Assembly (NCBI GenBank): GCA_001769835.1
Contig: MEPR01000039.1
Location: 56,101 to 120,100, forward strand
Length of the DNA stretch: 64,000 bases
Reading direction: 5' to 3'
Source of the DNA: Bdellovibrionales bacterium GWB1_55_8
Lineage (GTDB): Bacteria; Bdellovibrionota; UBA1018
Position numbers and translations under genes: made by a program. The notes beneath the pieces are model-generated. The model made no database searches and was not told the DNA's origin. It saw nothing but the letters and a program-made list of their open reading frames with translations. Each line of letters begins with the position of its first letter. Position 1 is the stretch's first letter. This document shows positions 6,209 to 47,413 of the stretch, in pieces.

Positions 6209-6947
6209 GTGAATGCCAGACCTGATTCGATCTGCTGAGTTCTCGCATCAAAAGTGCGCGAAGCTTTGGCTGGTATTTCGGAGGTACATCTACAAACTTC
6301 ACACCTAACTCGCACCTATCCTTTTTCTGTTCGGACGTACGAGCCCACACCACTTCAGCCTCCAGCGTCACGCTCGTCAAACGCAGACCAGGACCACTGA
6401 ATTGGATTTTAAGGCGGGTATTCAAAGGAATCGGCCGTTCAGTTGTGAGACCGGCGCCCATCATGGACAGATTGCTGATGGTACCTGCTCCAAACTGATC
6501 CACTGAAGCCTTCAACTTTGTCCGGACTCGAAAGGCATTCCGCGGCTTTCCAAAAACCTTCTCTGCAGGAGTGGAAAGAAGTGCGTCGAGCGCACCAAAA
6601 ATAACGCTGGGAGGATGAGCTTTGTGAACAGCCAGAAAGGATGGGTAGATCAACAGGTCCAGCAGGGTATCCGCTTTTTCATCGGCCACTAAAATGGTCG
6701 GCACATCCTCTTCGCAACGCTTCAATGCGTGGACAAGGTGCGCGCCGTTGATTCGCGGCATTTCGAAGGCTGTCACGACACCGGCGAAGAATCTGGGATA
6801 AAAAAGAGCCAGCGCTTCAAAACCATCCGATGCCTCAATGGCATGGAAACCTGCGGCTTCAAATTCATTACAGATCGCTATTCTGGATACAGGATCGTTG
6901 TGCGCAACCAAAACAACACGAGCAGGCTCGGGCGAGCGGTCATCCAT
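6201..6947 (-). CDS. Receiver-like (REC) domain fused to C-terminal PilZ domain. The receiver appears degenerate.
   Basis: 248 aa. N-terminal CheY-like fold, but by-eye alignment puts A/H/A at the D12/D13/D57 positions. C-terminal PilZ-like region (…RNAFRVRTKL…, DQFGAGTISNLSMMGAGL). Confidence 0.55.
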   Translation of the reverse strand: MDDRSPEPARVVLVAHNDPVSRIAICNEFEAAGFHAIEASDGFEALALFYPRFFAGVVTAFEMPRINGAHLVHALKRCEEDVPTILVADEKADTLLDLLIYPSFLAVHKAHPPSVIFGALDALLSTPAEKVFGKPRNAFRVRTKLKASVDQFGAGTISNLSMMGAGLTTERPIPLNTRLKIQFSGPGLRLTSVTLEAEVVWARTSEQKKDRCELGVKFVDVPPKYQPKLRALLMRELSRSNQVWHSPM

Positions 6948-7087
6948 AGACCCCTTTCGGATGAAAACCGGAATTTTTTTAGGACTTAGTCCAAACCGAA
7001 ATTCCGGTCGAAGAAATGAGCTTCAATTCCCGCTTCCTATGACCCATTCAACTGCAATGATTAATGGAATTCAGCCCTACCCTCTGA

Positions 7088-7786
7088 TCAAAACTGGCAA
7101 TGCCAGATTCCGGTACATTCCCGAAGGATAGCGCCGCCATTTGCCTCCATAAGAAGCGGAAACCTTTTCCCGAAGAATGCTTCGGTCAAAGCATCGGCCT
7201 GCTCTTTTGAATCAAAGCGATAATCGGTTCGTATCCAATTTCGTGCAAACCCGAACTCGCGTTCAAGAAACGAGTAATATTCGAAGAGCCTTTCATTGGG
7301 CTCCACCGGCAACTCATGTCCCGTACCCAGTGTCTCCAAAATGATAGCGAACCCCGACGGCCGGCTAATTCGTTCCATCTCTTTCACCGCTGATGCAACA
7401 TGCTCTTTCCAGGCATCGGGATACCAGGAAGTGCAATGTCCGAATGTCCAACCCGCAATTGTCAGATCCGCCGAAGCATCTTCGACCGGAATGGCTCTAT
7501 TTTCGCCGACTCGCCACGAAACATTCTCAATTCCAAGCACGCCAAGTCTGGCGCGTCCCTCATCGATCATCGCTGGATAAGCATCAAAGGCATGAATGAA
7601 TTTGCATCTTGGAGCAATCAGTCTGGTGAGACGTCCTGTTCCGGCACCGAATTCGACAACCTCTTTCTGAGCAAGCGGGGAGATTCGTTCTATAGCGGGG
7701 AGAATATTCCCCTGAAAGTCCTCCCGATAGACGAGAGCTTCATAGGTCTTCGCATGAGATTCATAGACTTTTTTGTATCGAGGCAT
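7088..7786 (-). CDS. Class I SAM-dependent methyltransferase
   Basis: 232 aa with a glycine-rich SAM-binding motif I (VVEFGAGTGRLT) and an acidic motif II (FDAY). Confidence 0.65.
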   Translation of the reverse strand: MPRYKKVYESHAKTYEALVYREDFQGNILPAIERISPLAQKEVVEFGAGTGRLTRLIAPRCKFIHAFDAYPAMIDEGRARLGVLGIENVSWRVGENRAIPVEDASADLTIAGWTFGHCTSWYPDAWKEHVASAVKEMERISRPSGFAIILETLGTGHELPVEPNERLFEYYSFLEREFGFARNWIRTDYRFDSKEQADALTEAFFGKRFPLLMEANGGAILRECTGIWHCQF

Positions 7787-7860: not shown

Positions 7861-7937
7861 TGGCGGGAGCGATGGGACTCGAACCCACGACCTTCGCCGT
7901 GACAGGGCGACATTGTAACCGACTCAACTACGCCCCC
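7861..7937 (-). tRNA. tRNA-Asp (anticodon GTC), 77 nt including encoded CCA
   Basis: Reverse complement is GGGGGCGTAGTTGAGTCGGTTACAATGTCGCCCTGTCACGGCGAAGGTCGTGGGTTCGAGTCCCATCGCTCCCGCCA. It has a cloverleaf with a 7-bp acceptor stem, a D-arm, the anticodon loop CTGTCAC, a T-arm GGTTCGAGTCC and a CCA end. It is near-identical in layout to canonical bacterial tRNA-Asp. Confidence 0.9.
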
Positions 7938-31413: not shown

Positions 31414-32058
31414 TTACCTCCTTTCTTTATGCGTGGTCACTGCAGCGTCACTCGACGCATCGGTACCCCGCTCTTTTGGAGCGGAATCGTTGGCCCGGAC
31501 CACTCCGGCCAGAAGTTCTGTCAACCGCGACGACTTCGCGGGATCCATAAGATTCATGATCTTTGCTAAACGCTGCGTCGAAATCCGCGACATGGCCGAA
31601 ACCGCGAGCGTCTCATCAAGCGAGGTCAGAAGCTGCGACGCCGCTTTCGGGCTCATCGTCTCGAAAGTCTCCACCAGCTTGTTCACGCGTTCGTCGTTCT
31701 CGGACTTGCGGGATTCCTGCACCTTCGCAAGCTCCTTGCGTATTCCATCAAACTTCTTCAGCTCCTCCGCGATCGCGTCCTCGCGCGCCTTGAACTCCGC
31801 TTCCTTGGCAACAAGATTGCGTTCGCGCACCTGAAGAGCCTCGCGCTGCTTGCGCAGATCCTCGATCACCGAAGGATCCGTCAGGCATGCGCCCGACGCT
31901 GAGCTGGAAATATTCGTTTCCGTAGTGTCGCCCCCGGAACTCTCAGCTGCACCCGCCGACCCAGCCGCTGAAGGAGCCGGGGTCTCTGCACTTGCGAGCA
32001 CCGTCATGACGGCGGCAGCGAGAAACACCATGACTGCAAGCGTTCTGAGGAGTCTCAT
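31414..32058 (-). CDS. MotE/FlbB/YlxF-like flagellar protein (MgtE-N-like domain)
   Basis: Signal/TM N-terminus, coiled coil and an MgtE_N-like C-terminus (…LLTSLDETLAVSAMSRISTQRLAKIMNLMDPAKSSRL…). Sits between fliJ and fliK, as ylxF does in Bacillus. Confidence 0.5.
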   Translation of the reverse strand: MRLLRTLAVMVFLAAAVMTVLASAETPAPSAAGSAGAAESSGGDTTETNISSSASGACLTDPSVIEDLRKQREALQVRERNLVAKEAEFKAREDAIAEELKKFDGIRKELAKVQESRKSENDERVNKLVETFETMSPKAASQLLTSLDETLAVSAMSRISTQRLAKIMNLMDPAKSSRLTELLAGVVRANDSAPKERGTDASSDAAVTTHKERR

Positions 32059-32510
32059 CCGACAGCCCTCTCCTTCAGGCGATCTCTCATGACCGACATG
32101 TCGTCGAGCAGCTTCTGCTCGCGCTTGCTCTGCATCTTTCGAAATTCAGCATGCTCGCGGTCGTACAGCGACTCCATCATGCGAGTCTGACGCCGCGTAT
32201 GAAGAAAATACTTCAAAGCCTTTTCGACCGCGCGACTCGCGCGCATGATATCGCGGTCAGCGCGCACGATCCGATGTTTCGTTCCTGCGATGAATTCGTC
32301 CTCAAGCTGGAAGGAAAGAACGCCGATTGGTTCGATACCAAGATTCTCACGGCGGATCAGCGCATTCTGAAGTTCGGAAACAAGACGTCCCTTTTTCGAG
32401 AGCTCTTCCTGATAAGCCCGTTGCGCATCACCCAACGCACGAAGAGCCTCCTCTTCGCGGCTTTTGCGCAGATTCAATACAGTGGCCAGTCTGAATCGGA
32501 AGCGTCTCAT
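32055..32510 (-). CDS. fliJ: Flagellar export chaperone FliJ
   Basis: About 150-aa all-helical protein starting MRRFRFRLATVLNLRKSREEEALRAL (FliJ-type). Start placed at ATG 32510 rather than the ORF-track TTG at 32522. Confidence 0.65.
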   Translation of the reverse strand: MRRFRFRLATVLNLRKSREEEALRALGDAQRAYQEELSKKGRLVSELQNALIRRENLGIEPIGVLSFQLEDEFIAGTKHRIVRADRDIMRASRAVEKALKYFLHTRRQTRMMESLYDREHAEFRKMQSKREQKLLDDMSVMRDRLKERAVG

Positions 32511-32609
32511 GTCTAAGATCAATTCTGATCTTGAGGCTCACCGCCCGCTAGACTGAATGTTTTGCCGCATGAAGGGGCACCACTGCTGCCGAGTGGAAAA
32601 AAGTGCCGA

Positions 32610-33173
32610 TCAGAGTGCGCGGCTCTTCAAGCCCGGCGGCCCCACTCCGTTTGAAATGACTTGAAACGGATCCCAGCTCCCGGACCAGAGTCCTTTCGAT
32701 TCAAGGAAATTCTTTGTAAAATACTCGGTTACGCGTTTGAACTCGTGGCCCCAACTTATAATCCTGGAATAAAGAGTACGGTCCCAGAACCTGCCCTTCG
32801 CGTTCGTCTTGCGGGCTCCCATGATCTGAAAGGCCAGCGCTCCTGAAAACTCCCTGAGGAAGCCCTGAAAATTCCGCTTCGCGGAAACGAAGCCCTTCGC
32901 GTCTGCTTTCACGAGCAAATGCAGGTGATTTCCCACGTTTACAGATCGATACACGCGGATCCTGTAGCGCCGGGCGCAGTCGGCCAACAGGTGTTCGAAC
33001 AATTTTGCATTCTCGCGGGTCAGAAGAGACCACTTCCCTTGCGCGCGGCTGGACCGCAGGACGAGATAGATCGGGTGCTTATGGCTGAACGGACGAGCCA
33101 CCTTTCTTCGCCCCTGACGTACCCCTCCCCCATGCTCGAGACGAAGGGATGGCAGAAATGAAGCCTGTTTCAT
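32610..33173 (-). CDS. tnpA: IS200/IS605-family Y1 HUH transposase (TnpA/RAYT-like)
   Basis: HUH motif NHLHLLVKA plus a C-terminal RAYT-like FWDRTLYSRIISWGHEF (catalytic Tyr region). Start at MKQASFLP (33173). The ORF-track start at 33284 would read through the upstream palindrome. Confidence 0.75.
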   Translation of the reverse strand: MKQASFLPSLRLEHGGGVRQGRRKVARPFSHKHPIYLVLRSSRAQGKWSLLTRENAKLFEHLLADCARRYRIRVYRSVNVGNHLHLLVKADAKGFVSAKRNFQGFLREFSGALAFQIMGARKTNAKGRFWDRTLYSRIISWGHEFKRVTEYFTKNFLESKGLWSGSWDPFQVISNGVGPPGLKSRAL

Positions 33174-33174
33174 G

Positions 33175-33192
33175 ACCGGATATATATCCGGT
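33175..33192 (-). promoter_or_regulatory. 18-bp perfect palindrome ACCGGATATATATCCGGT, 2 nt upstream of the tnpA ATG. Likely the IS200-type left-end hairpin, which would occlude the RBS.
   Basis: Seen directly in the sequence. IS200 elements carry such hairpins, serving as TnpA recognition sites and translational repressors. Confidence 0.5.
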
Positions 33193-33376
33193 TCAGTTAA
33201 CCGTGTAAAGACGTTTGTTACGGGTGAACGCTGGGGCAATGGTATTTTGATCGTACAAACACTGATGGAAACAAGGTCTGTCACATCTATTCTGCTAACT
33301 GACCCTGGATTTTTCTCGACCTTGTCAAAGCGCCATGAAAGCCGATGCTGTCGCGGAGCCTTTCAATAGGTAAGCT

Positions 33377-33577
33377 TCAGTTTTTGCGATCACATAAGTC
33401 TTGAGCATTCGGCTCATTTTTTCGGCAGACATTATCGATCGTGTCCCAGCAACCACCCGAGTCCAGACACGAGTCCTGCTTCATCCACGTACATGCATTC
33501 AGAGCAGATACCAGGAGCAAGCATGCTGAGATCAGCATCATCGAGAAAAGCCGTCCGTTCGCCCTACTCCGGGTCAT
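33377..33577 (-). CDS. Small secreted Cys-rich lipoprotein, 66 aa with 7 Cys
   Basis: Signal peptide plus lipobox (LLVSALNAC), then a Cys-rich mature peptide CTWMKQDSCLDSGGCWDTIDNVCRKNEPNAQDLCDRKN. Overlaps the start of the upstream kinase gene by 4 nt. Confidence 0.4.
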   Translation of the reverse strand: MTRSRANGRLFSMMLISACLLLVSALNACTWMKQDSCLDSGGCWDTIDNVCRKNEPNAQDLCDRKN

Positions 33578-34071
33578 TCAAAGGCCTTCTTCTTGATCAG
33601 ATCAGCGATCTCGTCCGGACTCATGTTGTCGGTCTTGATCTCAAACCCAAGCGCACCGTTCAAAAATCTTCCTCTCTGATTTCGTTCCACTTCCTGGGTT
33701 TCAGAAACTTCCCTCTCGGCTTGCGGTCGTCCACGTTTCAGAATCCGAGCGGAGAGACTCCGAGTTTCAGCTGAAAGATAGAACACACGGGCAGGCTCGC
33801 CCACTCTCTGAATGAAATCTTCCATCAGGTCAGGACTCAAAAACAGGCTATCGAATACGATCGTCCTTGCGCCCAGGCGGCGATAAGCGCTGATCAGATC
33901 ACAGGCGACATTCAAGGCAAGTTTCTGTCGCGACTGCGTGGCAATCAAATTATCCGAAACGAACCCGAGAACGTCGCCTTCAATATACGCGGCATCGTCC
34001 AACTGGCATAGCAGAGTCCTTGCCACCCAGGTTTTTCCAACGCCCACGGTGCCGTTTACGATGATGAGCAT
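33574..34071 (-). CDS. Small P-loop kinase (AAA_33/gluconokinase-sized NTP-binding protein)
   Basis: 165 aa with Walker A NGTVGVGKT at residues 6-14 and a Walker B-like hydrophobic strand plus D (IVFDSLF). Confidence 0.55.
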   Translation of the reverse strand: MLIIVNGTVGVGKTWVARTLLCQLDDAAYIEGDVLGFVSDNLIATQSRQKLALNVACDLISAYRRLGARTIVFDSLFLSPDLMEDFIQRVGEPARVFYLSAETRSLSARILKRGRPQAEREVSETQEVERNQRGRFLNGALGFEIKTDNMSPDEIADLIKKKAFE

Positions 34072-34197
34072 GTCTCAATCGTAAGTAGCGGCAGCCCGCC
34101 CGTCGAGCTAAAAAATACCGGAGCTCCATGCGAAAACATCGAAGTAAGAATCGCCGATGTCTTCGCATGAAGTTCCGGGTTCGAATTCACTGCAGTC

Positions 34198-34653
34198 CTA
34201 TTCGGACTTCTGTTGTACACATCTGATGTTCTGCTGATCGACTGTTTCAATGAACTCATCCACAAGGTCTTCGAGGTGTGAAACGATCTTGTGCCGAAGG
34301 TCAGGAGTGTCATCGAAGTACCTTACTTTTTTCCCTCGATCAGAAAGCGTGCTGAATACCGTCACGCCATTCGATTTCACGGCCTTAAGCCAGATTCTGT
34401 TCCTGAAAAAACTGGCACAAGACACCACGCCGCACTTTGCAAGCCCGGTCCACCCTGTGTAGTAATCCGTCTCAAGGAATATATGAGCAGGCACTCCCTG
34501 CGGCACCACATGATAGCCCTTCGTTAACAAGTGTTGCTGAGCCCATGTGTCATCGGTTGAGATCGTGCAGTTTAACGATGGACCGTCTTTCGCGTACGCT
34601 GATGAGACCGCGACCAAGCAGATTCCAACGATAGCCATAATTTTGCCGTTCAT
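34198..34653 (-). CDS. Hypothetical secreted protein
   Basis: Signal peptide MNGKIMAIVGICLVAVSSAYA. 4 Cys in the mature part. Low local GC. Confidence 0.4.
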   Translation of the reverse strand: MNGKIMAIVGICLVAVSSAYAKDGPSLNCTISTDDTWAQQHLLTKGYHVVPQGVPAHIFLETDYYTGWTGLAKCGVVSCASFFRNRIWLKAVKSNGVTVFSTLSDRGKKVRYFDDTPDLRHKIVSHLEDLVDEFIETVDQQNIRCVQQKSE

Positions 34654-34888
34654 ATGTTCTCCATTTTCTTCTTCCGGTTCAGCCCGGAAGCGAAAACGAG
34701 AATACGCCGCAATAGTCCAGGTCTCCGCTGACATCCTCTGACGTAAAGTAACATACGGAATTCACGAAAGAATCGCGATTCCTGCCGACCCTGCTCTACT
34801 TCGGCGCACCCTTGAAATTATCGGCCGGCTATGAGCATATGGCCCTCGTCGACTTGCACAATTCCAAACTTTTAGCGTCTCTATCGAG

Positions 34889-36268
34889 GTGATCCGGATG
34901 AGAGCTTTGTTCATCACACTTCCATTTCTGTTCATCGGCATAAACTCGGCCACTGCCGATGTTCTTCCGATTCAGGCAAACTACGTTTCGACGCGGGCCC
35001 AGGAAGGAATCATGTCTTTCGACCATTTCGTCGAGTTCAACGCGGATGCGAGGCAATCCGACACGGCACTTCAGGGCTGGGCGCGGCAGGCGATTGAAAA
35101 GCAGCTCATGTTTCTGATCGGTTCAATGAGGTGGCACTTCTCCGTTCCGAAGGGCGATCACAAAATCACGGAGCTGCGCCTTGCCCCGAAAAGCGCACAG
35201 GGTGTGACGATGATCGCCTCTTACCATTACGAGGGAACCGTTCAGATCCGCGAGGACGTACCCCTTCCGCTCAGGCTCGTGCTTCCGAATAACCCCTATC
35301 GGTTTTACTGGGACGGTCTCGTGCGAGATGGCTTCAAAATAAGCGCGCCTTGCACGCAGAAGCATTATCGTTGGCCGAGCGACCTGTTTTATTTCTGGCA
35401 CCCTTACGCTCCCGCGTGTCCATGGAAACGCGGCGAGGACTACCAGGAGATCCAGCCTGAAATCGTTTTAAAAAATAACGACGAAACGACCTATCCGGAA
35501 TACGACCGGCTTGTCGACCCCGCCACCCGTACGATCTCGATGTGGATACTTGTCGGACCTGCCAGCAACAAATCCATGAATCCGATGACCTCTCCTGATA
35601 TCAATGCGCAGACTTTCTGTGAATTCCGGGAACATTTCCTGCGTAAGGGATTTTCTTCACGGCGTTGGACCTCCAAAGAAATCCGCAGGAAGGGGAACAC
35701 CCTCTTCGCGAAACTCCCTTGGGTCGAGGATTTCGAAAAACAAGGCGCCCGATCCCGTATCCTGATCCACGCATTCTATGGCCATACCGCGGTGAAGGAT
35801 TTCAGCCGCGCTTTTTACCACTTTCTTGAGGACGGGGTCGAGAACGCCTCAATGGTGGTGTACGCAGGACATGCAGGATTGGGCAAAACCCTTGCACCTT
35901 CCGTAGCGGAAAAGATCGGGCTACTCAGGATGCGACCCAATCGGGATCGCTACCAGATCTATTTCTTCAACGGATGCAGCACTTACGCTTATTACACGCA
36001 ACCCTACTTCACGCGTAAAGCGAGCGCTTTGGATCCAGAAGGCACAAAGAACCTCGACATCATCACAACCGGCCTGGCCACAGGCGAGGACTTCCTCGGG
36101 AGTAGTTCACTCGCCGCGATCGATGCTGTGACGGACTGGGCTGATGGCGGTGCTGCCGCAAGTTATCAGGAAATCCTGAAACGCGCAGGTGGTTCCAATT
36201 TGCTGAGCGTCAGCGGAGATGAAGACAATCCGTCATCTCCGCAAAAACCCTTCCAAACGCGCGATTAA
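34889..36268 (+). CDS. Secreted protein with a putative clan-CD (caspase/clostripain/gingipain-like) cysteine peptidase His-Cys dyad
   Basis: Signal peptide (LFITLPFLFIGINSATA). The C-terminal half has a hydrophobic strand plus GH (MVVYAGHAGLG) followed ~40 aa later by a hydrophobic strand plus xC (QIYFFNGCSTYAYY), the arrangement typical of CD-clan peptidases. Confidence 0.4.
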   Translation: MIRMRALFITLPFLFIGINSATADVLPIQANYVSTRAQEGIMSFDHFVEFNADARQSDTALQGWARQAIEKQLMFLIGSMRWHFSVPKGDHKITELRLAPKSAQGVTMIASYHYEGTVQIREDVPLPLRLVLPNNPYRFYWDGLVRDGFKISAPCTQKHYRWPSDLFYFWHPYAPACPWKRGEDYQEIQPEIVLKNNDETTYPEYDRLVDPATRTISMWILVGPASNKSMNPMTSPDINAQTFCEFREHFLRKGFSSRRWTSKEIRRKGNTLFAKLPWVEDFEKQGARSRILIHAFYGHTAVKDFSRAFYHFLEDGVENASMVVYAGHAGLGKTLAPSVAEKIGLLRMRPNRDRYQIYFFNGCSTYAYYTQPYFTRKASALDPEGTKNLDIITTGLATGEDFLGSSSLAAIDAVTDWADGGAAASYQEILKRAGGSNLLSVSGDEDNPSSPQKPFQTRD

Positions 36269-38455
36269 CAGGTCTAAAATCGAAATTCTATCCTTTGAGA
36301 CTGGCTCCCCGATTCTCCCCTTTTCGAGTTCCGCAAGCTCCCGCGCCTTCAATGTACGAACCGCCTGCTCGGCTTTCGATCGATCGCTGGCAAGCGCCGC
36401 TTCAGCGGACTTGGCAAGAGCCGTATCCGATTGGATCAATTCCTTTTCCCGTCTGAGCTCATCGTCTGAAGGCACCCGCCTTGTTCTGAATTCTGGTTCT
36501 GCGGGAAGTGTAAGTTCCACTTTACTCAGCCAGACGTCAGAAGGAGCACCGGTTCTCGCAGAAGGAGCGAGACAACTTGGGTCTGCGGAGAAAATATTGA
36601 AACTCAGGAAACTTCGATCGGGGGAAAGCGACATCTGAACGTCCAGCTTCGCGTCCCGATGTGATGCAAGCCACAGGGATTTCGGTGTTCTTGAGAAAGA
36701 CGATTTGCAGTTCCTGAATTGAATGGTGCCACTCCACGAGTCAGGTTTGATGGTCAGATCAGCACTGAAATCGCGGCGCGATACCTGGACCTTCACCACA
36801 CCAGCAGCGGCATCGCAGTTCACCTTGAGTTTCACATCAGCAAATTTTTGGCCGTTCGGAACTTCCCCGGCGGAAGCATAATGGGCGATCTCCGGCTTCT
36901 TCGGATCAAAGTCGCGTCTCTCAATCCGCACCTTCTTGGGATGTCCTTTTTTATCGAAAAGGTCAGGATCAGAACAGTAGAGCCTGTAAATCTCTTTCGC
37001 ATCGCGAGATTTCAGACCCCGCGATTTTATGAGATCCGGGAAACGCATACCGGCGGTTTGGATGACTCCGGAAATATCCTCGATCGACTCCGCGCGAATG
37101 ACACCGCCCCCTTCTTTTCGGATAGCCAGATAGACGTTCCCTAGCGAGTCTTTGATTCCGGTTTCCTTGCACCCAACATGACTGCGGTAGAGGCTGAAAT
37201 ACGGGGAGTTATAGTAACCCTCCTTCGCTATACCGCCGACATCACCACCGCCGCCTTTGCCGACATCACCACCGCCGCCTTTGCCGACATCACCACCGCC
37301 GCCTTTGCCGACATCACCACCGCCGCCTTTGCCGACATCACCACTGAACCTCAGTCCAGATGACGAATCCACAAACGGACTCGGACACACGGATTGAAAC
37401 CGTTCCGTAGTAGCGCCGACACGAAAAGTGATCTCGGGCGTGCCCACAGCTCCACCTGGTGTTTGTGTCACCGTCCGGTCGTAGTAATACGGAGACCCTT
37501 CTGCTTTCGAGACATCAAGCCCATTCATGAGCCCTGGAAGGGCCTCATTGATGGTCTCGATCGGAACCGCGACGGACTGGGTTTCGTTCAAGAACGTCTT
37601 CAGAAGTATTCCAGAGAGGAAAGTTTTCGATTCGAAGATCTCACTGGTTCCGCTTCGGGGTACCAAAACGGTGTAAATAATCGGACTGCCACTCATGCCT
37701 GGCCGGACACCCTGCTTCGGCAATAGGACTGCGCTCCTACTCCCGATAAGCGGATGCTCTGCAGCTTGGGTCGCGAGCTCGATTTGCACGGGAAAACGAT
37801 TGGGGATCACCTTCAATCCATCTTCAGTCACTCGTGCGAGATGCAGATTTTCCCGATTGACGAAATCCGCCGCTGTTTGGATGTAATGGCTGCCTTCTGG
37901 CAGCCAGTTTTCGCGATTAATGGGAAGCAGGTGGCGAACTTCAGCCACGGGCAGTTTGAAACCATCCCAAACAAATAAGGGCGTCAGGTCCGAAACAATC
38001 TTCTCTAATTCCAGGACCGCGAGATCCTTCGTCTGGCTGATACCGCGAACTTTTGCCTGAACAACTTTCCCCCCGCAGCGGACCTGGACCTTTTCGGCGC
38101 CTGCGACCACGTGTGCGGCGGTCAAAACGAACAGATGTTTTGGTTCATTGGCCGATTTAAAGACAGAGCCTTGCCCAATCGAGGACAGCGAGTCTTTACC
38201 GGACTGCCTCTGCCCCTCGATCTCGACTACTTCGCACCGGTCCAGAACCGGGGCGTTGTTCGCGATTCGATCCAGCCATCTCACCAGCTCCGGCTCAAGG
38301 AGCGCCTCGCCTGACAAGCCACTATTGCAACAAGGGTCCGCAGTCACTGGCGAAGATGAGCCAGACAAAGCCATTGCAGGGATCATCGATCCCGCGACGC
38401 CGAAGAGAATAGTGAGCACTCGCAGTGGAAAACTGCACATCGTTCGTTTATTCAT
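36233..38455 (-). CDS. Large secreted trypsin-like (S1 family) serine protease with an internal (GDVGKGGG)n tandem repeat and a C-terminal coiled coil
   Basis: Signal peptide MNKRTMCSFPLRVLTILFGVAGSMIPAMA. Catalytic His (VLTAAHVVAG), Asp (KDLAVLEL) and Ser (GMSGSPII) in S1 order. Repeats GDVGKGGG ×4.5, then …ELRREKELIQSDTALAKSAEAALASDRSKAEQAVRTLKARELAELEK. Start chosen at the signal-peptide Met. Confidence 0.6.
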   Translation of the reverse strand: MNKRTMCSFPLRVLTILFGVAGSMIPAMALSGSSSPVTADPCCNSGLSGEALLEPELVRWLDRIANNAPVLDRCEVVEIEGQRQSGKDSLSSIGQGSVFKSANEPKHLFVLTAAHVVAGAEKVQVRCGGKVVQAKVRGISQTKDLAVLELEKIVSDLTPLFVWDGFKLPVAEVRHLLPINRENWLPEGSHYIQTAADFVNRENLHLARVTEDGLKVIPNRFPVQIELATQAAEHPLIGSRSAVLLPKQGVRPGMSGSPIIYTVLVPRSGTSEIFESKTFLSGILLKTFLNETQSVAVPIETINEALPGLMNGLDVSKAEGSPYYYDRTVTQTPGGAVGTPEITFRVGATTERFQSVCPSPFVDSSSGLRFSGDVGKGGGGDVGKGGGGDVGKGGGGDVGKGGGGDVGGIAKEGYYNSPYFSLYRSHVGCKETGIKDSLGNVYLAIRKEGGGVIRAESIEDISGVIQTAGMRFPDLIKSRGLKSRDAKEIYRLYCSDPDLFDKKGHPKKVRIERRDFDPKKPEIAHYASAGEVPNGQKFADVKLKVNCDAAAGVVKVQVSRRDFSADLTIKPDSWSGTIQFRNCKSSFSRTPKSLWLASHRDAKLDVQMSLSPDRSFLSFNIFSADPSCLAPSARTGAPSDVWLSKVELTLPAEPEFRTRRVPSDDELRREKELIQSDTALAKSAEAALASDRSKAEQAVRTLKARELAELEKGRIGEPVSKDRISILDLLIARLEGFLRR
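37222..37345. repeat. Perfect 24-bp tandem repeat (GACATCACCACCGCCGCCTTTGCC) ×4, plus one partial copy at each end (about 5.3 copies), in-frame within the S1 protease gene
   Basis: Seen directly: …gccgacatcaccaccgccgcctttgcc ×4 …gacatcaccactgaa. Encodes GDVGKGGG units on the minus strand. Confidence 0.9.
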
Positions 38456-38534
38456 CGGCATAACCTGGTGACTTCCTAAGTATTCTTTGTCTGCTTGCCG
38501 ATAAGAGTCCTGGAGGGCTCCCGGGAGCTGCGTC

Positions 38535-39728
38535 ATGAAACATAAATACGGCTCTACTGCTCTGAACAAGAGCCCAACACTGAGGAGCAGCGAACTTTCG
38601 GCGATCTACTACTCGCTGGTCGAGATGATCTTGCAAGGCCGCTATGAAGCAACGGCGGAAGCCCTGAACCAACTTCGTCGTGGAAGCCCGTTCACGCATG
38701 ACGATAACGAAGCTATTCGCAGATTGATTGCCGCGCGCCTCGCGATAAAACAAGGCGATGCTGGTGAGGACACATCCTGGCTGGATATTCCAGTTCCGGA
38801 GAATTCCTGGCTTGCTGCTGAAAAGGAAATTGTAAAAGGTCATTGGGAGTATCACCTGCAGAACTTTCCGATGGGCATCACGCACTTTAAGGAGGCGGAG
38901 CGCCAATTCAAAAACCTGGGAATGCTCGATCGGGAGTTCCTCAGCGCTTTCAATCAAATCATCGGCGAAGTCAGTGGCCCCTCTCAGCTCCCCCCCCTTC
39001 AGCAGATCGATCAGCTTCGGCAGTTGGAGATCCGAGTCCGACAGCACCTCGAGAAAGTGGGCTGCGTGCGAGTTCAGGCGCTGATTCATCGACAAAAATC
39101 TCACGCATTTGAGGACCTGACCCTGTTCCACGCGGCGGTGGAAGAGATATCAAAAGCGATACAAATACTGGAGCTTCACGGGCCAGCCTCGGACTATCAA
39201 CTGGCCCTGCTTCAGGCTGCCGACCTGAGCCTGGATTTAGGTGACCAGTTCCGGGGTCGCACCTTTTTCGAATACGTCATTCCACCGCTCGATAAGAGAG
39301 TTGAATTTCCTCATGCCTACATAGCCTGGCGATTGGGCGGACCGCTTCCCGAGCAATCCAATTTTGAAATCCTGCCCGGCGGATGGAAGGAAAAGTTCGA
39401 GAAATTGAGAGCATCCCTCACTCCCGATAACAGTACTCCTCACGAATGGACCTGGAATCTCACCTCAGGTGAGATTCAAAGCCCTGAGCTTCTCAAACCC
39501 ATTCAACTCAAACCAGCAAGCCTGGAAGGGCGCCTCGTACAGATGTTGACCCGCAACAAGGCAACGAAGAACCTTCTAATTGAATCTTTCTGGCCCGGGC
39601 AAAGCGACAGACAGTTACTGGACAACCGCCTGCACAGGATGATCTCCCGCTTGAACAAAAAGTTGTCGAACCTCATCGAGTTTGACGGGAAAAGTTATCG
39701 TCTCAAGCGGCGATTACGGACTAAATGA
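38535..39728 (+). CDS. Atypical transcriptional regulator: N-terminal helical/TPR-like domain and C-terminal OmpR/PhoB-type winged-helix DNA-binding domain, with no receiver domain
   Basis: C-terminus …LEGRLVQMLTRNKATKNLLIESFWPGQSDRQLLDNRLHRMISRLNKKLSNLIEFDGKSYRLK matches the trans_reg_C pattern (LT..E..LL..L…vWg…..ld..i.rLRkKL…i.tvrg.GY.L). Divergently transcribed from the protease gene. Confidence 0.5.
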   Translation: MKHKYGSTALNKSPTLRSSELSAIYYSLVEMILQGRYEATAEALNQLRRGSPFTHDDNEAIRRLIAARLAIKQGDAGEDTSWLDIPVPENSWLAAEKEIVKGHWEYHLQNFPMGITHFKEAERQFKNLGMLDREFLSAFNQIIGEVSGPSQLPPLQQIDQLRQLEIRVRQHLEKVGCVRVQALIHRQKSHAFEDLTLFHAAVEEISKAIQILELHGPASDYQLALLQAADLSLDLGDQFRGRTFFEYVIPPLDKRVEFPHAYIAWRLGGPLPEQSNFEILPGGWKEKFEKLRASLTPDNSTPHEWTWNLTSGEIQSPELLKPIQLKPASLEGRLVQMLTRNKATKNLLIESFWPGQSDRQLLDNRLHRMISRLNKKLSNLIEFDGKSYRLKRRLRTK

Positions 39729-39799
39729 AAGAAATGCCGCCACTCTTCTTCTCGAAGAGGGCGGCATTCTCATGAACGGCTAAATAAACTCCTAGAGCA

Positions 39800-40642
39800 T
39801 CAAAGGACTGAGTCGGAACCCGGAACGCTGACACCCGCTTTGGTGAAATAGGCCTGAAAATCAGCTTCAGAGACTTCCTCGCCGTTGATTTCATACTTGG
39901 TTTCTGTTCCATCGAAGGACTGTTTCAACTCCGCCGAAAAATCCGCATACTCAAGTTTGAGGGCCACGGAGCCGCTGCCATCGGCCTCTGTGCTGCTGAA
40001 TTCCATTTCCACATCGGCTTGCAGTTCGAATTTCACATCACCCTTGGTCTGCGAGTGGACATCGCCCTTAACCTCGCCCTCGATCACGATCGAACCACCG
40101 CTCGTGGAGGTCGTTGCTTTGACTGCGATCTCGCCCGAAAGGTCGAACTTGTCGACATCGTTCAGCTTGCGGAATTCGTCGTCTTTCACTTCGTATTTCA
40201 GCGTGGCGGCGACCTTGGCTTCCGTTTCGCTGCCTGAGCCCTTCATTTCGATATTCATCGAAATCGGGCAGGACACATCAGGCTTGTCGGAAACCTGAAT
40301 TTTGATATTGAAGCTGGTGGCGCTCGTCGAAACAGGTACCGAATAGTCCACCTGACAAAGTTCGTCTGCCAGCTTCTCCTGCATTTCAATGGTGGTGGGA
40401 TCCGTCGTGAGCGCTGCCGAACGTGATCCAGCCGTGCCACTGAGAAAGGACAGCGCATGGAACCGGTTCACAACAGGAAGGGCGAGCGTTGCCGGCGCGC
40501 CAGGAACCGATTGATGAGTGCGGCCCGCGCTTTCGATTGTTGCCGACACGATGGCCTTCTGCTCATCTGTCAGCTTCTTTTGTCCACAACCAGTCACGAC
40601 GAGTGCCATCAGCACGGATACAAGCACAAATGCGTTTCTCAT
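39800..40642 (-). CDS. Hypothetical lipoprotein
   Basis: Lipobox LMALVVTGC. S/T/E/K-rich repetitive beta-rich mature domain. Confidence 0.5.
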   Translation of the reverse strand: MRNAFVLVSVLMALVVTGCGQKKLTDEQKAIVSATIESAGRTHQSVPGAPATLALPVVNRFHALSFLSGTAGSRSAALTTDPTTIEMQEKLADELCQVDYSVPVSTSATSFNIKIQVSDKPDVSCPISMNIEMKGSGSETEAKVAATLKYEVKDDEFRKLNDVDKFDLSGEIAVKATTSTSGGSIVIEGEVKGDVHSQTKGDVKFELQADVEMEFSSTEADGSGSVALKLEYADFSAELKQSFDGTETKYEINGEEVSEADFQAYFTKAGVSVPGSDSVL

Positions 40643-40803
40643 GAGATCTCCTTTTATTTGCAGGGATCATAAGGAAGGAAACGCAAATTCACAAGCTGAC
40701 GCTTCAGCGAAAGACGCATTCGCCTTACGTCTTATTCTGAAGTTATTCAGTTGACAGCCTTGAGCCGTAACCACTCACGGATGACAGTGGATGGATTCCC
40801 TGC

Positions 40804-42285
40804 CTATTTTTGCTTCTGCCCGGTCTGCTGTGCCGCGAAGGCGGCTTCCACGCTCCGGACAATCGAATAGAGCATCCCGGTGGCCTGATCGTAAGTCGTT
40901 CGTTCATCGATTCCCTGCCGGAGAAACGCATTGATCCGCTCGATCGCGAAAATCGCCTGATCGATCTTCGCATTGCTGCCTTTCACATAGGCTCCGATAT
41001 TGATCAGATCCTCGGCCTGCGCGTAGGCTGCCATCCATTCCCTGACCTGGCCTGCCCAGAGATTATGTTCCTTGCTGATCACCGAACGCATCACACGACT
41101 TGCGCTCTGAAGCACATCAACGGCCGGGTAGTGATTGCGTTGCGCGATCTTCCTAGAAAGGACGATGTGCCCGTCCAGAATGGACCGGACGGAGTCCGCG
41201 ATCGGATCATCCATGTCATCGCCTTCCACGAGTACCGTGAACAAGCCCGTGATACTCCCCTTTTTCGGCGCCATGCCGGCGCGTTCAAGAAGCTTCGGAA
41301 GGGTCGAGAACACACTGGGAGTGTAGCCCTTGGAAGCCGGAGGTTCGCCCATGGCCAGCCCGATTTCACGCTGGGCCATCGAGAAGCGGGTCACTGAATC
41401 CATGAGCATCAAAACGTCTTTGCCCTGATCCCGGAAATACTCCGCGATCGTCATTCCAAGGAAGGCCCCGCGCATGCGGAGAAGCGGCGAACGATCAGAG
41501 GTTGAAACGACGACGACCGAACGAGCCAAAGCTTCCGGCCCCAGGTCCCGTTCGATGAACTCCCGGACCTCGCGTCCGCGCTCGCCGATCAGCGCAATCA
41601 CGTTCACCTCGGCCGAGGTATGCCTGGCCATCATCCCTAGCAGGACGGATTTTCCGACACCCGAACCTGCCATGATCCCGACACGCTGGCCCTTGCCACA
41701 AGTCATCAGCCCATTGATGGAACGAATTCCGAGATCCAGGGGCTCGGTAATCATTTCACGCTCGAGAGGATGGGATGGAACCTGGTACAGGCTCCGCTCC
41801 TCCAGCCATTCGCCACGTGAAACCAGCGGTCCCTTGCCGTCGATTGGAACGCCCTTTCCATCGATCACACGGCCGAGAAGCGCGTTTCCAACCGGGACCG
41901 TGGATTTATTCTTTCGAAGAACGACCAGGCTGTCGTTATGGACACCTGAGGCATCTTCAAAGGGCATCAGAAGAACACGCTTGTCGCGAAACCCGATCAC
42001 CTCGGCATCAACGCCTTCGTCCGCTCCTGGTTCGCTTGAGCTGAGAATGCGACAAAGACTTCCGACCGCTGCACCGGGCAGATGCGCCTCGTAAATGAGA
42101 CCAAGAGACTTGGTCACTTTACCGGCATGATTGTAGAGAAGCGTGTGTTTGAGCCGATCCTCGTACTTCGCGGAATCAATCTCCCAGGTCACGTGGTCTC
42201 GCTCCCATGCTCTGTCGAACTGGCGAAGAGAGCCGAGGAGATGCTCTGAAGCTGCGCCTCGACGCTTGCGTTGATCGCGTTCCAC
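40804..42285 (-). CDS. fliI: Flagellum-specific ATP synthase FliI
   Basis: Walker A GSGVGKS, Walker B …VLLMMDSVTRFSMAQREIGL… and an F1/T3SS ATPase fold. The ORF-track start overlaps fliH by 97 nt, so the true start is probably an alternative codon near 42190-42200. Confidence 0.9.
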   Translation of the reverse strand: MERDQRKRRGAASEHLLGSLRQFDRAWERDHVTWEIDSAKYEDRLKHTLLYNHAGKVTKSLGLIYEAHLPGAAVGSLCRILSSSEPGADEGVDAEVIGFRDKRVLLMPFEDASGVHNDSLVVLRKNKSTVPVGNALLGRVIDGKGVPIDGKGPLVSRGEWLEERSLYQVPSHPLEREMITEPLDLGIRSINGLMTCGKGQRVGIMAGSGVGKSVLLGMMARHTSAEVNVIALIGERGREVREFIERDLGPEALARSVVVVSTSDRSPLLRMRGAFLGMTIAEYFRDQGKDVLMLMDSVTRFSMAQREIGLAMGEPPASKGYTPSVFSTLPKLLERAGMAPKKGSITGLFTVLVEGDDMDDPIADSVRSILDGHIVLSRKIAQRNHYPAVDVLQSASRVMRSVISKEHNLWAGQVREWMAAYAQAEDLINIGAYVKGSNAKIDQAIFAIERINAFLRQGIDERTTYDQATGMLYSIVRSVEAAFAAQQTGQKQK

Positions 42286-47179: not shown

Positions 47180-47413
47180 AGTGTTCCCCTGCCAGAAACT
47201 CTTCAAGTTACATGCCGCGTCTTCCGATGAGCCCGATGAAGGCATTGCTCGAAATCCGCTGTGGTTCAGGCGTCTTGAAAATTTTCCCCGGATCCTCCTC
47301 TACTTAGTCCCGCTCGCCCCTCGGCAAAAGTTGCCGCTTCCATCTTTTCCCAGGGCAAATACTGCCGTCCCCGTCCATCGCCCGGACGACGATGGCAGCA
47401 TTGCCCTGTTCCA

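What the first reader, a model, noticed from the sequence alone, without database searches (positions are those of the whole stretch)
32523..40803. An ~8.3-kb accessory module inserted between fliI and fliJ in an otherwise canonical flagellar super-operon
fliH, fliI and fliJ are normally contiguous and co-transcribed. Here fliI (ending at 40804) and fliJ (starting at 32510) are separated by nine genes on both strands:
- a HUH transposase
- a 66-aa Cys-rich lipoprotein
- a P-loop kinase
- a secreted protein of unknown function
- a secreted putative clan-CD cysteine peptidase
- a 740-aa secreted S1 protease with tandem repeats
- a winged-helix regulator
- a lipoprotein

Plus-strand genes inside a minus-strand operon should break read-through into fliJ and the genes downstream of it. 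Local GC in parts of the module is lower than the flanks (45-50% against about 58%). The content looks like a horizontally acquired secreted-hydrolase cassette with its own regulator, possibly predation- or virulence-related.
Basis: partly seen in the sequence, partly recalled or inferred. Interest (0 to 1): 0.8.

Follow-up and report, generated by a model that had tools for sequence, protein, structure and literature searches.

The report
Gene islet splitting fliI from fliJ
A predatory-type bacterium (Bdellovibrionota) carries an 8.3-kb patchwork of secreted-protease and other genes between two flagellar genes that are neighbours in its closest relatives, at a spot where about eleven related lineages have each gained different genes; it is a real but fairly ordinary gene islet.

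Summary
In this window (Bdellovibrionales bacterium GWB1_55_8, groundwater MAG), 8,281 bp (32523-40803) lie between fliI and fliJ. They carry eight ORFs, six co-oriented with the flagellar cluster and two antisense. In the four closest genomes fliI and fliJ are 81-123 bp apart.

It is not one imported cassette. Only the TPR/winged-helix regulator and the secreted S1 protease travel together elsewhere, in non-flagellar contexts. The clan-CD-fold peptidase belongs to a large Bdellovibrionota family with a paralogue in the same genome. No inverted or direct repeats, integrase or tRNA mark the ends. GC is only about 3 points below the window mean.

The junction is a recurrent gain site. About 11 independent insertions with unrelated cargo occur among about 42 related genomes. 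Every one mapped lies 5' of an invariant 17-nt box, usually 35-42 nt before the fliJ ATG. A strong hairpin ends transcription after the first islet gene.

Best reading: a lineage-specific flexible islet in a pre-existing inter-operon spacer that leaves fliJ's own upstream control region intact. How the DNA got in, and what binds the box, are both unknown.

The parts
40804..42285 (-). fliI, the flagellar export ATPase and the upstream anchor. Pipelines call a 462-aa product starting at 42192.
   Evidence: Pfam ATP-synt_ab 2e-91 and T3SS_ATPase_C 3.5e-25; 75-79% identical to L001-L004.
40643..40803 (-). New fliI-p280 spacer. It has no similarity to the fliI-fliJ spacer of relatives. It contains a sigma-70-like site, TTGTGA-17-TATGAT (40694 to 40666).
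   Evidence: Alignment with L001-L003; promoter scan, where the overall count is no better than chance.
39800..40642 (-). p280, a predicted lipoprotein (signal sequence with VVTGC lipobox) with a beta-rich repetitive body. Function unknown.
   Evidence: ORF and translation; only sub-threshold family hits; absent from all 80 related loci.
39733..39768 (-). GC-rich hairpin followed by a T-rich tail, lying between the convergent p280 and p397 genes. Likely the intrinsic terminator that ends the fliFGHI(-p280) transcript.
   Evidence: MFE -32.9 kcal/mol, z = -3.1 against shuffles.
38535..39728 (+). p397, a cytoplasmic regulator with a TPR superhelix (residues 14-295) and a C-terminal domain with OmpR/PhoB-like winged-helix topology (residues 305-396). 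It is transcribed divergently from the S1 protease.
   Evidence: AF2 pLDDT 87; Foldseek TPR/Rap/NprR hits at E about 1e-3; Trans_reg_C at E about 0.01 in 2 of 5 homologue C-termini; 12 homologues; paired with an S1 homologue in L090-L094 and L096.
36233..38461 (-). Secreted S1 (chymotrypsin-fold) serine protease of 742 aa. It has a signal peptide, a protease domain (His117/Asp146/Ser257), a Gly-rich linker, a Cys-rich C-terminal domain and a coiled-coil tail.
   Evidence: Pfam Trypsin_2 27.8 bits against a 27.6 cut-off; invariant triad and 8 invariant Cys in 4 homologues; only 2 database homologues plus L096:7170-8912.
37235..37354 (-). Five tandem 24-nt units encoding (GDVGKGGG)n in the protease linker. 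Copy number differs between assemblies.
   Evidence: product lengths 742, 734 and 718 aa; 24-nt gap in the L081 alignment.
34898..36268 (+). p459, a secreted clan-CD-fold (gingipain/separase/caspase-like) putative cysteine peptidase. It belongs to an uncurated family that is, as far as named hits show, specific to Bdellovibrionota. Its 3' end overlaps the S1 gene by 36 bp.
34198..34734 (-). p178, a small protein with an internal signal-peptide-like segment (MNGKIMAIVGICLVAVSSAYA). Function unknown. Divergent from p459.
   Evidence: ORF; called in L081; no family hits.
33574..34071 (-). P-loop NMP-kinase-fold protein, related to chloramphenicol-phosphotransferase/AAA_33 and Gar/GrdA families. 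Substrate unknown.
   Evidence: Pfam AAA_33 1.2e-7 and CPT 7.8e-6; NCBIfam NF038208 1e-10, below cut-off; PDB 2bdt 5e-5.
33377..33577 (-). 66-aa Cys-rich ORF with a signal/lipobox-like N-terminus. Its start overlaps the kinase stop (ATGA). No pipeline calls it, so its status is uncertain.
   Evidence: Translation; absent from the L081 gene calls.
32610..33173 (-). Y1 (HUH) IS200/IS605-type transposase-like gene of 187 aa at the fliJ-proximal edge. The HUH motif and the Tyr are retained.
   Evidence: PF01797 E 0.004 and NF047646 3.7e-6, both below cut-offs; family of 1,232 clusters; 40 of 41 members hit Y1_Tnp; the profile hits ISDra2 and ISHp608 TnpA structures; conserved N82-H83-x-H85 and Y151.
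33175..33192 (.). 18-nt perfect palindrome ACCGGATATATATCCGGT, 1 nt 5' of the Y1 start codon. Possibly an operator or a left-end hairpin.
   Evidence: Read directly from the sequence. Not tested further.
32511..32609 (-). Retained ancestral fliJ upstream region. It holds the loose element GGCA-N6-TCCA (32594-32607) and the invariant fliJ box GGCAAAACATTCAGTCT (32550-32566), 39 nt before the ATG.
   Evidence: Alignment to L001-L003; box present in 34 genome loci and 16 metagenome contigs, always 5' of fliJ; no conserved RNA pairing.
32055..32510 (-). fliJ, the downstream anchor, followed by p214, fliK, flgD and flgE.
   Evidence: Pfam FliJ 3e-14; 60-68% identical to L001-L003; downstream genes.

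Best explanation
The 8.3-kb stretch is a lineage-specific, mosaic flexible islet. It accumulated in the spacer between two flagellar transcription units, fliFGHI and fliJ-fliK-flgDE, of a Bacteriovoracia-like member of the Bdellovibrionota.

Shown by the data:
1. It is absent from the closest relatives.
2. The same junction has gained unrelated genes about 11 separate times in the clade.
3. Every insertion that could be mapped lies between the fliI stop codon and a conserved fliJ leader. That leader carries an invariant 17-nt box, usually 35-42 nt from the fliJ ATG, and it is intact here.
4. The cargo is not one cassette. It comprises a self-contained regulator-protease pair (TPR + winged-helix p397, divergent from a secreted S1 protease) that recurs as a pair elsewhere; a secreted clan-CD-fold peptidase from a large Bdellovibrionota family; two or three small exported proteins; a P-loop kinase; and a Y1 transposase-like gene at one edge.

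Inferred, not shown:
- Transcription from fliFGHI runs at most into p280 and stops at the hairpin at 39733-39768.
- p397 controls the divergent protease promoter.
- fliJ and the genes after it are expressed from their own conserved upstream element. Read-through from the co-oriented p178-kinase-Y1 string may add to this.
- Flagellar assembly is therefore not compromised, and the site tolerates insertions because it is already an operon boundary.
- The cargo most plausibly adds to the cell's secreted hydrolase repertoire.
- How the DNA got in is unknown. Several separate events of illegitimate or homologous recombination seem likeliest, with the Y1 gene a later or separate arrival rather than the carrier of the whole islet.
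For: - Adjacency in relatives: gaps of 81-123 bp in L001-L004 and under 200 bp in 26 clade loci.
- FliI tree: the window sits among 'adjacent' genomes, while insertions are scattered. They occur in the window, L005/L006, L007, L014, L019, L020, L021, L024, L029, L032/L036 and L078.
- Unrelated cargo in those inserts: a papain-like C1 peptidase; an SDF symporter with a solute-binding protein; a DAO oxidoreductase with a holin-like protein; unknown secreted proteins; FeeM-PilZ.
- fliJ box: a single copy per locus, always 5' of fliJ with constant spacing. In 34 genome loci, 26 have it 35-42 nt from the ATG. It is also directly 5' of fliJ in 16 metagenome contigs, 34-38 nt from the start of the fliJ match in 14 of them.
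- The window keeps 99 bp of this leader, aligned to L001-L003.
- Mosaic origin: the p397/S1 pair is 61%/47% identical in L090-L094 next to secA, and about 38%/24% identical in tandem in L096. No other module gene accompanies it.
- p459 homologues sit in three different contexts, and one paralogue is in the same genome.
- Terminator-like hairpin after p280.
- No tRNA, integrase, phage or defence-system signal.
- Five assemblies agree on the structure.
Against: - No transcription data exist, so the promoter role of the fliJ box is inference. The box fits neither the sigma-54 (GG-N10-GC) nor the sigma-70 consensus. The Bdellovibrio FliA consensus TTAAG-N16-CCGATA (PMC3627812) abuts it perfectly only in L003.
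- Consensus promoter and terminator scans across the module are no better than shuffled sequence.
- The closest genomes are only 75-79% identical in FliI. The order and number of insertion events in the window lineage therefore cannot be resolved, and a single multi-gene acquisition from an unsampled Bdellovibrionota donor is not excluded.
- The module is the lowest-GC stretch of the window and has weaker codon adaptation (0.034 against 0.105 +/- 0.05). This fits foreign or recent DNA as well as low expression.
- Four of the insertion loci (L005, L006, L014, L029) are inferred only from the absence of fliJ in the sequence available.
Confidence: 0.65

Rival explanations
1. A single horizontally acquired secreted-hydrolase cassette with its own regulator, delivered in one event and mobilised by the Y1 (IS200/IS605-type) transposase at its edge.
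For: - The module is the lowest-GC 8.3-kb stretch in the window, with weaker codon adaptation.
- A Y1 gene with an intact HUH motif and Tyr sits exactly at the fliJ-side boundary.
- IS200/IS605 elements leave no target-site duplication and have no terminal inverted repeats (established knowledge). The lack of such marks is therefore not decisive against them.
- L006 also has a Y1 homologue downstream of fliI.
Against: - Only two of the eight genes co-occur anywhere else.
- The p459 family is native to the phylum and has a paralogue in the same genome.
- Every homologue that a source names is from Bdellovibrionota.
- The Y1 stop codon abuts the ancestral spacer, leaving no room for a right-end hairpin.
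- No second copy or REP-like repeats occur in 64 kb, and there are no plasmid relatives.
- Known IS200/IS605 elements are about 0.7-2 kb and do not carry 8 kb of cargo (established knowledge).
- The other ten or so insertions at this site carry no transposase, L006 excepted.
Confidence: 0.15
2. The block is ancestral at this position and was deleted in the relatives.
For: The nearest sampled genomes are fairly distant (FliI 75-79% identical), so the ancestral state is inferred only by parsimony.
Against: - All four nearest genomes and 26 clade members lack it.
- The occupied sites in other lineages hold unrelated genes, not remnants of this block.
- tblastn finds no trace of any module protein in the 80 loci, apart from a 32%-identical Y1 homologue in L006.
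Confidence: 0.04
3. The inserted genes are lineage-specific flagellar accessories (for example sheath, collar or basal-disc proteins, or a flagellum-processing protease) recruited into the flagellar regulon.
For: - p280 follows fliI in the same orientation after a 161-bp gap, with the terminator only after it, so it may be co-expressed with fliFGHI.
- Six of the eight genes are co-oriented with the cluster.
- In B. bacteriovorus, FliA drives many attack-phase proteases as well as flagellar genes (PMC3627812).
Against: - No hit to any flagellar family.
- No module gene is conserved next to flagellar genes in 80 related loci.
- The p397/S1 pair lies in non-flagellar contexts elsewhere.
Confidence: 0.08
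4. An assembly artefact: a chimeric join inside a metagenome-assembled contig.
For: The source is a MAG. One assembly (L081) has a 180-N gap nearby in fliF.
Against: Five assemblies from different pipelines (ENA x3, JGI, Logan) reproduce the fliI-p280-p397 junction at 99.8-100% identity. L081 spans the whole block into fliJ and fliK.
Confidence: 0.02

Closest known systems
Flexible genomic islands at fixed hotspots, meaning the same locus with different cargo among relatives. One class sits inside flagellar gene clusters (Alteromonas macleodii, PMC3542563). The Pseudomonas aeruginosa flagellar glycosylation island is a further example, cited from my own knowledge.
   Same: Conserved flanking flagellar genes. 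The same junction is occupied by different gene sets in different lineages. There is no integrase or tRNA, and composition is only mildly atypical.
   Different: Known flagellar-cluster islands mostly encode flagellin glycosylation or alternative flagellins, so they are functionally tied to the flagellum. Here the cargo is secreted peptidases, a regulator, a kinase and small exported proteins. The comparison is between species or genera, not strains. The site lies inside the core fliFGHIJ block rather than next to flagellin genes.
IS200/IS605-family insertion sequences and REP-associated tyrosine transposases (RAYTs)
   Same: The edge gene has the Y1 HUH fold signature (HUH motif plus catalytic Tyr). 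Its family profile matches the ISDra2 and ISHp608 TnpA structures. The module shows no target-site duplication or terminal inverted repeats, as expected for this family.
   Different: Scores fall below the curated cut-offs of both Pfam and NCBIfam models. There is a basic N-terminal extension. No right-end hairpin, no tnpB, no REP arrays and no second copy are seen in the window. There is no evidence that it moved the other seven genes.
Clan CD cysteine peptidases: gingipains (C25), separase (C50), CHAT, and metacaspases/caspases (C14)
   Different: Only 8-14% sequence identity, and no match to any Pfam or NCBIfam model. There is an extra N-terminal beta-rich domain of about 200 residues. Catalysis is untested, and I did not verify the superposition of the dyad on the template active site.
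HtrA/DegP-like and other PA-clan S1 serine proteases of the Bdellovibrio hydrolase arsenal
   Same: Trypsin_2 domain with TAAHV / DLAV / GMSGSP motifs, and a signal peptide.
   Different: No PDZ domains. Instead there is a Gly-rich repeat linker, a Cys-rich domain of about 250 aa with no known homologues and a coiled-coil tail. Only three relatives were found among 5.8 billion clusters.
Orphan OmpR/PhoB-type winged-helix regulators fused to TPR domains (SARP/AfsR-type), and TPR-based RRNPP regulators (Rap, NprR)
   Same: A TPR superhelix combined with a small DNA-binding-type domain. The gene lies next to its likely target.
   Different: The domain order is reversed relative to SARPs, with the winged helix at the C-terminus and no BTAD domain. 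The RRNPP resemblance rests only on generic TPR matches (E about 1e-3, TM 0.3-0.45). No peptide gene was identified. Trans_reg_C is matched only below threshold.

Membership tests
Flexible genomic island / insertion hotspot | Conserved flanking genes that are adjacent in close relatives | tested here: met
   fliI-fliJ gap is 81-123 bp in L001-L004 and under 200 bp in 26 clade loci.
Flexible genomic island / insertion hotspot | The same junction occupied by different, unrelated cargo in other lineages | tested here: met
   About 11 independent occupied sites with unrelated genes; also L121.
Classical integrase-mediated genomic island | Tyrosine or serine integrase, a tRNA/tmRNA target and flanking direct repeats | tested here: not met
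   No integrase domain. The only tRNA is at 7861-7937. No boundary repeats.
Classical integrase-mediated genomic island | Clearly atypical base composition or codon usage | tested here: inconclusive
   GC 52.9% against 55.6%; GC3 0.596 against 0.642; codon score 0.034 against 0.105 +/- 0.05. Lowest in the window but within the range of other genes.
IS200/IS605 insertion sequence or RAYT | Y1 transposase with HUH motif and catalytic Tyr | tested here: met
   N82-H83-x-H85 and Y151 are conserved in a 41-sequence alignment. 40 of 41 members hit PF01797. The profile hits the 2xo6 and 2a6m TnpA structures.
IS200/IS605 insertion sequence or RAYT | Score above the curated family cut-off | tested here: not met
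   PF01797 17.7 bits against a 23 cut-off; NF047646 26.9 against 80; NF033573 18.3 against 55.
IS200/IS605 insertion sequence or RAYT | Sub-terminal hairpins at both ends, or flanking REP sequences, and multiple copies | tested here: inconclusive
   One perfect 18-nt palindrome lies 5' of the gene (33175-33192). Nothing lies 3' of it, where the stop codon abuts the ancestral spacer. No repeat family is found in 64 kb. Genome-wide copy number could not be tested.
Clan CD cysteine peptidase | Caspase/hemoglobinase alpha-beta-alpha fold | tested here: met
Clan CD cysteine peptidase | Conserved catalytic His then Cys dyad | tested here: inconclusive
   H325 and C360 are invariant in 63 sequences and in the expected order. 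Structural superposition on a template active site was not done, and activity is untested.
Clan CD cysteine peptidase | Membership of a curated sequence family (C14, C25, C50, C11, C13, CHAT) | tested here: not met
   No Pfam, NCBIfam or PDB sequence hit, even with a 63-sequence profile.
S1 / PA-clan serine peptidase | Trypsin-like domain with His-Asp-Ser in order | tested here: met
   Trypsin_2 27.8 bits against a 27.6 cut-off. H117, D146 and S257 are invariant in 4 homologues down to 25% identity.
OmpR/PhoB-type winged-helix DNA-binding domain | Significant match to Trans_reg_C or to a solved member | tested here: not met
   No hit for p397 itself; E about 0.01 in 2 of 5 homologue C-termini. 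PDB profile search negative.
OmpR/PhoB-type winged-helix DNA-binding domain | Topology of a beta-sheet, three helices and a C-terminal beta-hairpin | tested here: met
   AF2 elements E305-308, E313-315, H330-340, H345-352, H359-376, E381-383, E387-390, E394-396 at pLDDT 82-92. This is resemblance by topology only.
Flagellar accessory proteins (FlgP, FlgT, FlbB and similar) | Homology to a flagellar family, or conserved linkage to flagellar genes | tested here: not met
   No flagellar family hit for any of the eight products. None is present in the 80 related flagellar loci.
Anti-phage defence system | Match to PADLOC models | tested here: not met
   Only marginal hits, at E of 2e-4 or weaker.

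The most novel reading that the evidence does not exclude
In the Bacteriovoracia-like branch of the Bdellovibrionota, the fliI|fliJ spacer may be a dedicated regulatory node. Its invariant 17-nt 'fliJ box' (GGNAAAANWTTCAGTCT, at a fixed distance from the fliJ ATG and fitting no known sigma-factor consensus) would be recognised by an unknown factor. Because the operon is naturally split there, the site would also act as a gene-capture locus. New secreted predation hydrolases and their regulators would be slotted in and expressed alongside, or just after, the flagellar export apparatus. This would link prey-attack enzymes to motility control.
Probability: 0.15. Interest if true: 0.6.

Novelty: new member of a known kind. 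Interest (0 to 1): 0.4.

Why it matters
- For annotation: the block should not be labelled flagellar, nor treated as one mobile element.
- For Bdellovibrionota biology it yields three leads.
  1. A conserved regulator-protease gene pair with almost no relatives in public data.
  2. A large, uncurated clan-CD-fold peptidase family that, as far as named hits show, is confined to the phylum.
  3. A recurrent gene-gain site inside the otherwise rigid fliFGHIJ block, marked by an invariant cis-element of unknown function.
- That cis-element is directly testable in cultured Bacteriovorax.
- None of this overturns current understanding. Islands inside flagellar clusters, and hotspots with variable cargo, are well known.

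Tried and rejected
- Target-site duplications and terminal repeats. Repeat searches at two scales, plus a direct local alignment of the two boundaries, found nothing above shuffled controls. By eye, both boundaries share GGCA-N7-TCCA followed by a CCACT...AGTGG stem. I treat this as chance.
- REP-like repeats for a RAYT: none in 64 kb.
- Plasmid relatives of the Y1 gene: none.
- Defence-system and phage-family scans: only marginal hits.
- Rfam across the module: nothing.
- The fliJ leader as a structured RNA: RNAalifold predicts no pairs in 23 sequences.
- The box as a sigma-54 promoter: the GG-N10-GC spacing is not met, and TGGCAC-N5-TTGC matches in the window are at chance level.
- The box as a general flagellar promoter: it occurs once per 20-kb locus. 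The similar core 5' of flgB in the window is not conserved in relatives.
- The box in non-fliJ contexts. The metagenome scan gave 42 hits. 16 have fliJ directly downstream, and one more is cut by the contig end 12 nt after fliI. The other 25 look like chance matches (low-GC, eukaryote-like or inside long ORFs), except possibly L099.
- p459 as part of a conserved cassette: three homologue contexts are all different.
- Confirming the winged helix by sequence: PDB profile, Pfam and hhalign searches were all negative or sub-threshold.
- PDB sequence searches for the kinase and p280: uninformative.

Full report
**What is there.** The window comes from Bdellovibrionales bacterium GWB1_55_8, a groundwater MAG (names given by sources). 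Its minus strand carries a canonical flagellar cluster. The order is a sigma-54 activator, flgB, flgC, fliE, fliF, fliG, fliH, fliI, then fliJ, a 214-aa gene, fliK, flgD, flgE, fliL, fliM ... fliR, flhB, flhA. Between the fliI stop (40804) and the fliJ ATG (32510) lie 8,281 bp plus a 12-nt leader remnant.

ORF listing and translation give eight ORFs. Gene calls on five independent assemblies of the same population confirm seven of them.
- In the direction of the flagellar genes: p280 (lipoprotein), the S1 protease, p178, a P-loop kinase, a 66-aa Cys-rich ORF and a Y1 transposase-like gene.
- Antisense: p397 (regulator) and p459 (peptidase).

The five assemblies are 99.8-100% identical to the window across the junctions, so the arrangement is not a chimera.

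**Is it an insertion?** I fetched 80 loci encoding FliI relatives from species-representative genomes and located the flanking genes by tblastn.
- In the four closest genomes (FliI 75-79% identical) fliI and fliJ are 81-123 bp apart.
- No module protein is found in any of the 80 loci, apart from a 32%-identical Y1 homologue in L006.
- On a FliI neighbour-joining tree the window groups with genomes where fliI and fliJ are adjacent.

Insertion in the window lineage is therefore the parsimonious reading.

**A recurrent site.** Within the same Bacteriovoracia-like clade, eight other loci have 1.0-4.1 kb between fliI and fliJ. Four more have no fliJ within the 0.8 to over 10 kb of sequence available. 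On the tree these fall into about 11 separate events. Their cargo is unrelated to the window's and to each other's:
- a papain-family peptidase (L007);
- an SDF symporter with a solute-binding protein (L019);
- a DAO oxidoreductase with a holin-like membrane protein (L020);
- unknown secreted proteins (L024, L032/L036);
- a FeeM-PilZ protein, an acyltransferase and a Y1 gene (L006).

The fliF-fliG-fliH-fliI junctions are uninterrupted in every locus. A metagenome contig (L121) adds one more case, with more than 6 kb and no fliI 5' of fliJ.

**Why this site?** Aligning the region 5' of fliJ revealed an invariant block, GG[A/C/T]AAAAN[A/T]TTCAGTCT.
- It is present in 34 genome loci, including all those with mapped insertions. 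In 26 of the 34 it lies 35-42 nt before the fliJ ATG.
- It occurs once per roughly 20-kb locus, always on the fliJ strand.
- Scanning the metagenome collection with the 19-mer recovered 16 further contigs with fliJ directly downstream. The box ends 34-38 nt before the start of the fliJ match in 14 of them. The remaining hits look like chance matches.
- A looser element (GGCA-N5-TTCC) lies 35-45 nt further upstream.

In the window both elements are retained (32594-32607 and 32550-32566). The Y1 stop codon abuts them. All mapped insertions lie between the fliI stop and these elements. The Bdellovibrio-like clade lacks the box and has a fliI-fliJ gap of 2-60 nt.

What the box is remains open.
- The leader shows no conserved RNA pairing.
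- It does not fit sigma-54 spacing.
- The B. bacteriovorus FliA consensus TTAAG-N16-CCGATA (PMC3627812) sits perfectly just 5' of the box only in L003.

I infer that fliJ heads its own transcription unit, or at least a separately controlled segment, in this clade. That would explain why the spacer tolerates insertions. This is inference; no expression data were available.

**Transcription logic inside the islet.**
- A GC-rich hairpin with a T-rich tail lies between the convergent p280 and p397 genes (39733-39768; -32.9 kcal/mol, z = -3.1). It would stop any read-through from fliI and p280.
- p397 and the S1 gene are divergent with about 73 bp between them.
- p459 and p178 are divergent with about 160 bp between them.
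- p178, the kinase, the 66-aa ORF and the Y1 gene are co-oriented with fliJ, with no terminator-like structure before it. Read-through into fliJ from inside the islet is therefore possible.
- Generic promoter and terminator scans are at chance level.

**What the cargo is.**
- *The S1 protease* marginally passes Trypsin_2 and keeps an invariant His117/Asp146/Ser257 triad. It also keeps eight invariant cysteines and a Gly-rich linker in homologues down to 25% identity. Only two database relatives exist, plus one found by context.
- *p397* is predicted as a TPR superhelix followed by a beta-alpha3-beta-hairpin domain with OmpR-like topology. Sequence evidence for the winged helix is sub-threshold, so 'winged-helix regulator' rests on topology and conserved sequence pattern only.
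- *The p397-S1 pairing.* p397 and the protease are neighbours in three separate situations. They are divergent here, divergent next to secA in a related Bdellovibrionales (61% and 47% identity), and in tandem in a more distant contig (38% and 24%). That is good evidence for a functional pair, most simply a regulator and its target.
- *The kinase* has a generic NMP-kinase/CPT-like P-loop fold.
- *p280, p178 and the 66-aa ORF* have export signals and no informative homologues.
- *The Y1 gene* belongs to a large family (1,232 clusters at 50% identity) with a conserved HUH motif and Tyr. Its profile matches IS200/IS605 transposase structures. The gene itself scores below curated cut-offs.

**Origin.** Nothing marks a single mobile element.
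- No boundary repeats, tRNA or integrase were found.
- No phage, plasmid or defence signal was found.
- Only the p397/S1 pair recurs together. p459 homologues sit in three different neighbourhoods.
- The module's GC is 52.9% against 55.6% for the window, GC3 is 0.596 against 0.642, and codon adaptation is lower. Other non-flagellar genes in the window are similar.

I therefore read the block as a mosaic of phylum-typical genes gathered at a permissive site. The Y1 gene is a separate resident rather than the vehicle. A single transfer from an unsampled relative cannot be excluded, because the nearest genomes are not close enough to show intermediate states.

**Comparison with known systems.** As a phenomenon, this is a flexible genomic islet at a hotspot. 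Such loci are well documented, including inside flagellar clusters (PMC3542563, and the Pseudomonas glycosylation island from my own knowledge). It differs from those in three ways:
- its cargo is unrelated to flagellin modification;
- it sits inside the fliFGHIJ core;
- the hotspot is shared across genera.

The individual proteins are new or poorly sampled members of known enzyme and regulator classes.

**Verdict.** The block is an insertion and it does carry secreted hydrolases with a regulator. It is not shown to be one horizontally acquired cassette, and it is probably not the cause of an operon break. Interest is moderate. The recurrent hotspot and the invariant fliJ box are the parts most worth following up.

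Noticed in passing
window 32550-32566 (-), with a looser element at 32594-32607; also L001-L039, L078, L103-L139: An invariant 17-nt 'fliJ box' (GGNAAAANWTTCAGTCT) lies before the fliJ ATG throughout the Bacteriovoracia-like clade, 35-42 nt from it in 26 of 34 genome loci. It occurs once per locus, shows no RNA structure and fits no known sigma consensus. It is absent from Bdellovibrio-like genomes.
   Followed up: partly
window 37235-37354: A perfect 24-nt tandem repeat encodes (GDVGKGGG)n in the S1 protease linker. There are 5 units here, 4 in L081 and 2 in L082, all assemblies of the same population. This is either real length polymorphism or short-read collapse. Distant homologues keep a Gly-rich linker at the same position.
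   Followed up: partly
window 33175-33192: An 18-nt perfect palindrome, ACCGGATATATATCCGGT, lies one base 5' of the Y1 transposase-like start codon. It could be an operator or an IS left-end hairpin.
   Followed up: no
window 47276-47288 (-): GGGAAAATTTTCA lies 30 nt 5' of the flgB ATG and shares the core of the fliJ box. These are the only two exact matches to GGNAAAANNTTCA in 64 kb. The flgB copy is not conserved in relatives.
   Followed up: partly
L003:11520-11585: A perfect match to the B. bacteriovorus FliA promoter consensus TTAAG-N16-CCGATA ends immediately 5' of the fliJ box in this relative. Other lineages keep only parts of the -10 element.
   Followed up: partly
window 31414-32058 (-): The 214-aa gene after fliJ weakly matches the spirochaete periplasmic-flagellum collar protein FlbB (NF047368, E 1.3e-6, below cut-off). 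The overall gene order matches what I recall of the B. subtilis fla/che and spirochaete flgB operons.
   Followed up: no
L081:5473-5652: This assembly has a 180-N scaffold gap inside fliF. The 276-aa antisense gene and the truncated FliF called there are artefacts of that gap.
   Followed up: yes
L086:10796-12670 and L089:14447-16396: Two p459-family genes (the same-genome paralogue P0003 and the homologue P0012) both lie within a few kb of Lnb_N (PF13387) domain genes. This could be a functional link.
   Followed up: no
L006:11485-21485: This relative has no fliJ within 10 kb downstream of fliI. The stretch holds a FeeM-PilZ gene, a 2-oxoacid dehydrogenase acyltransferase and a 32%-identical Y1 transposase-like gene, among others. 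It is either a much larger insertion or a rearrangement.
   Followed up: partly
window 6201-7786: Two genes next to tRNA-Asp (7861-7937) have the lowest GC (50-52%) and codon adaptation in the window outside the module. This may be another small variable region.
   Followed up: no
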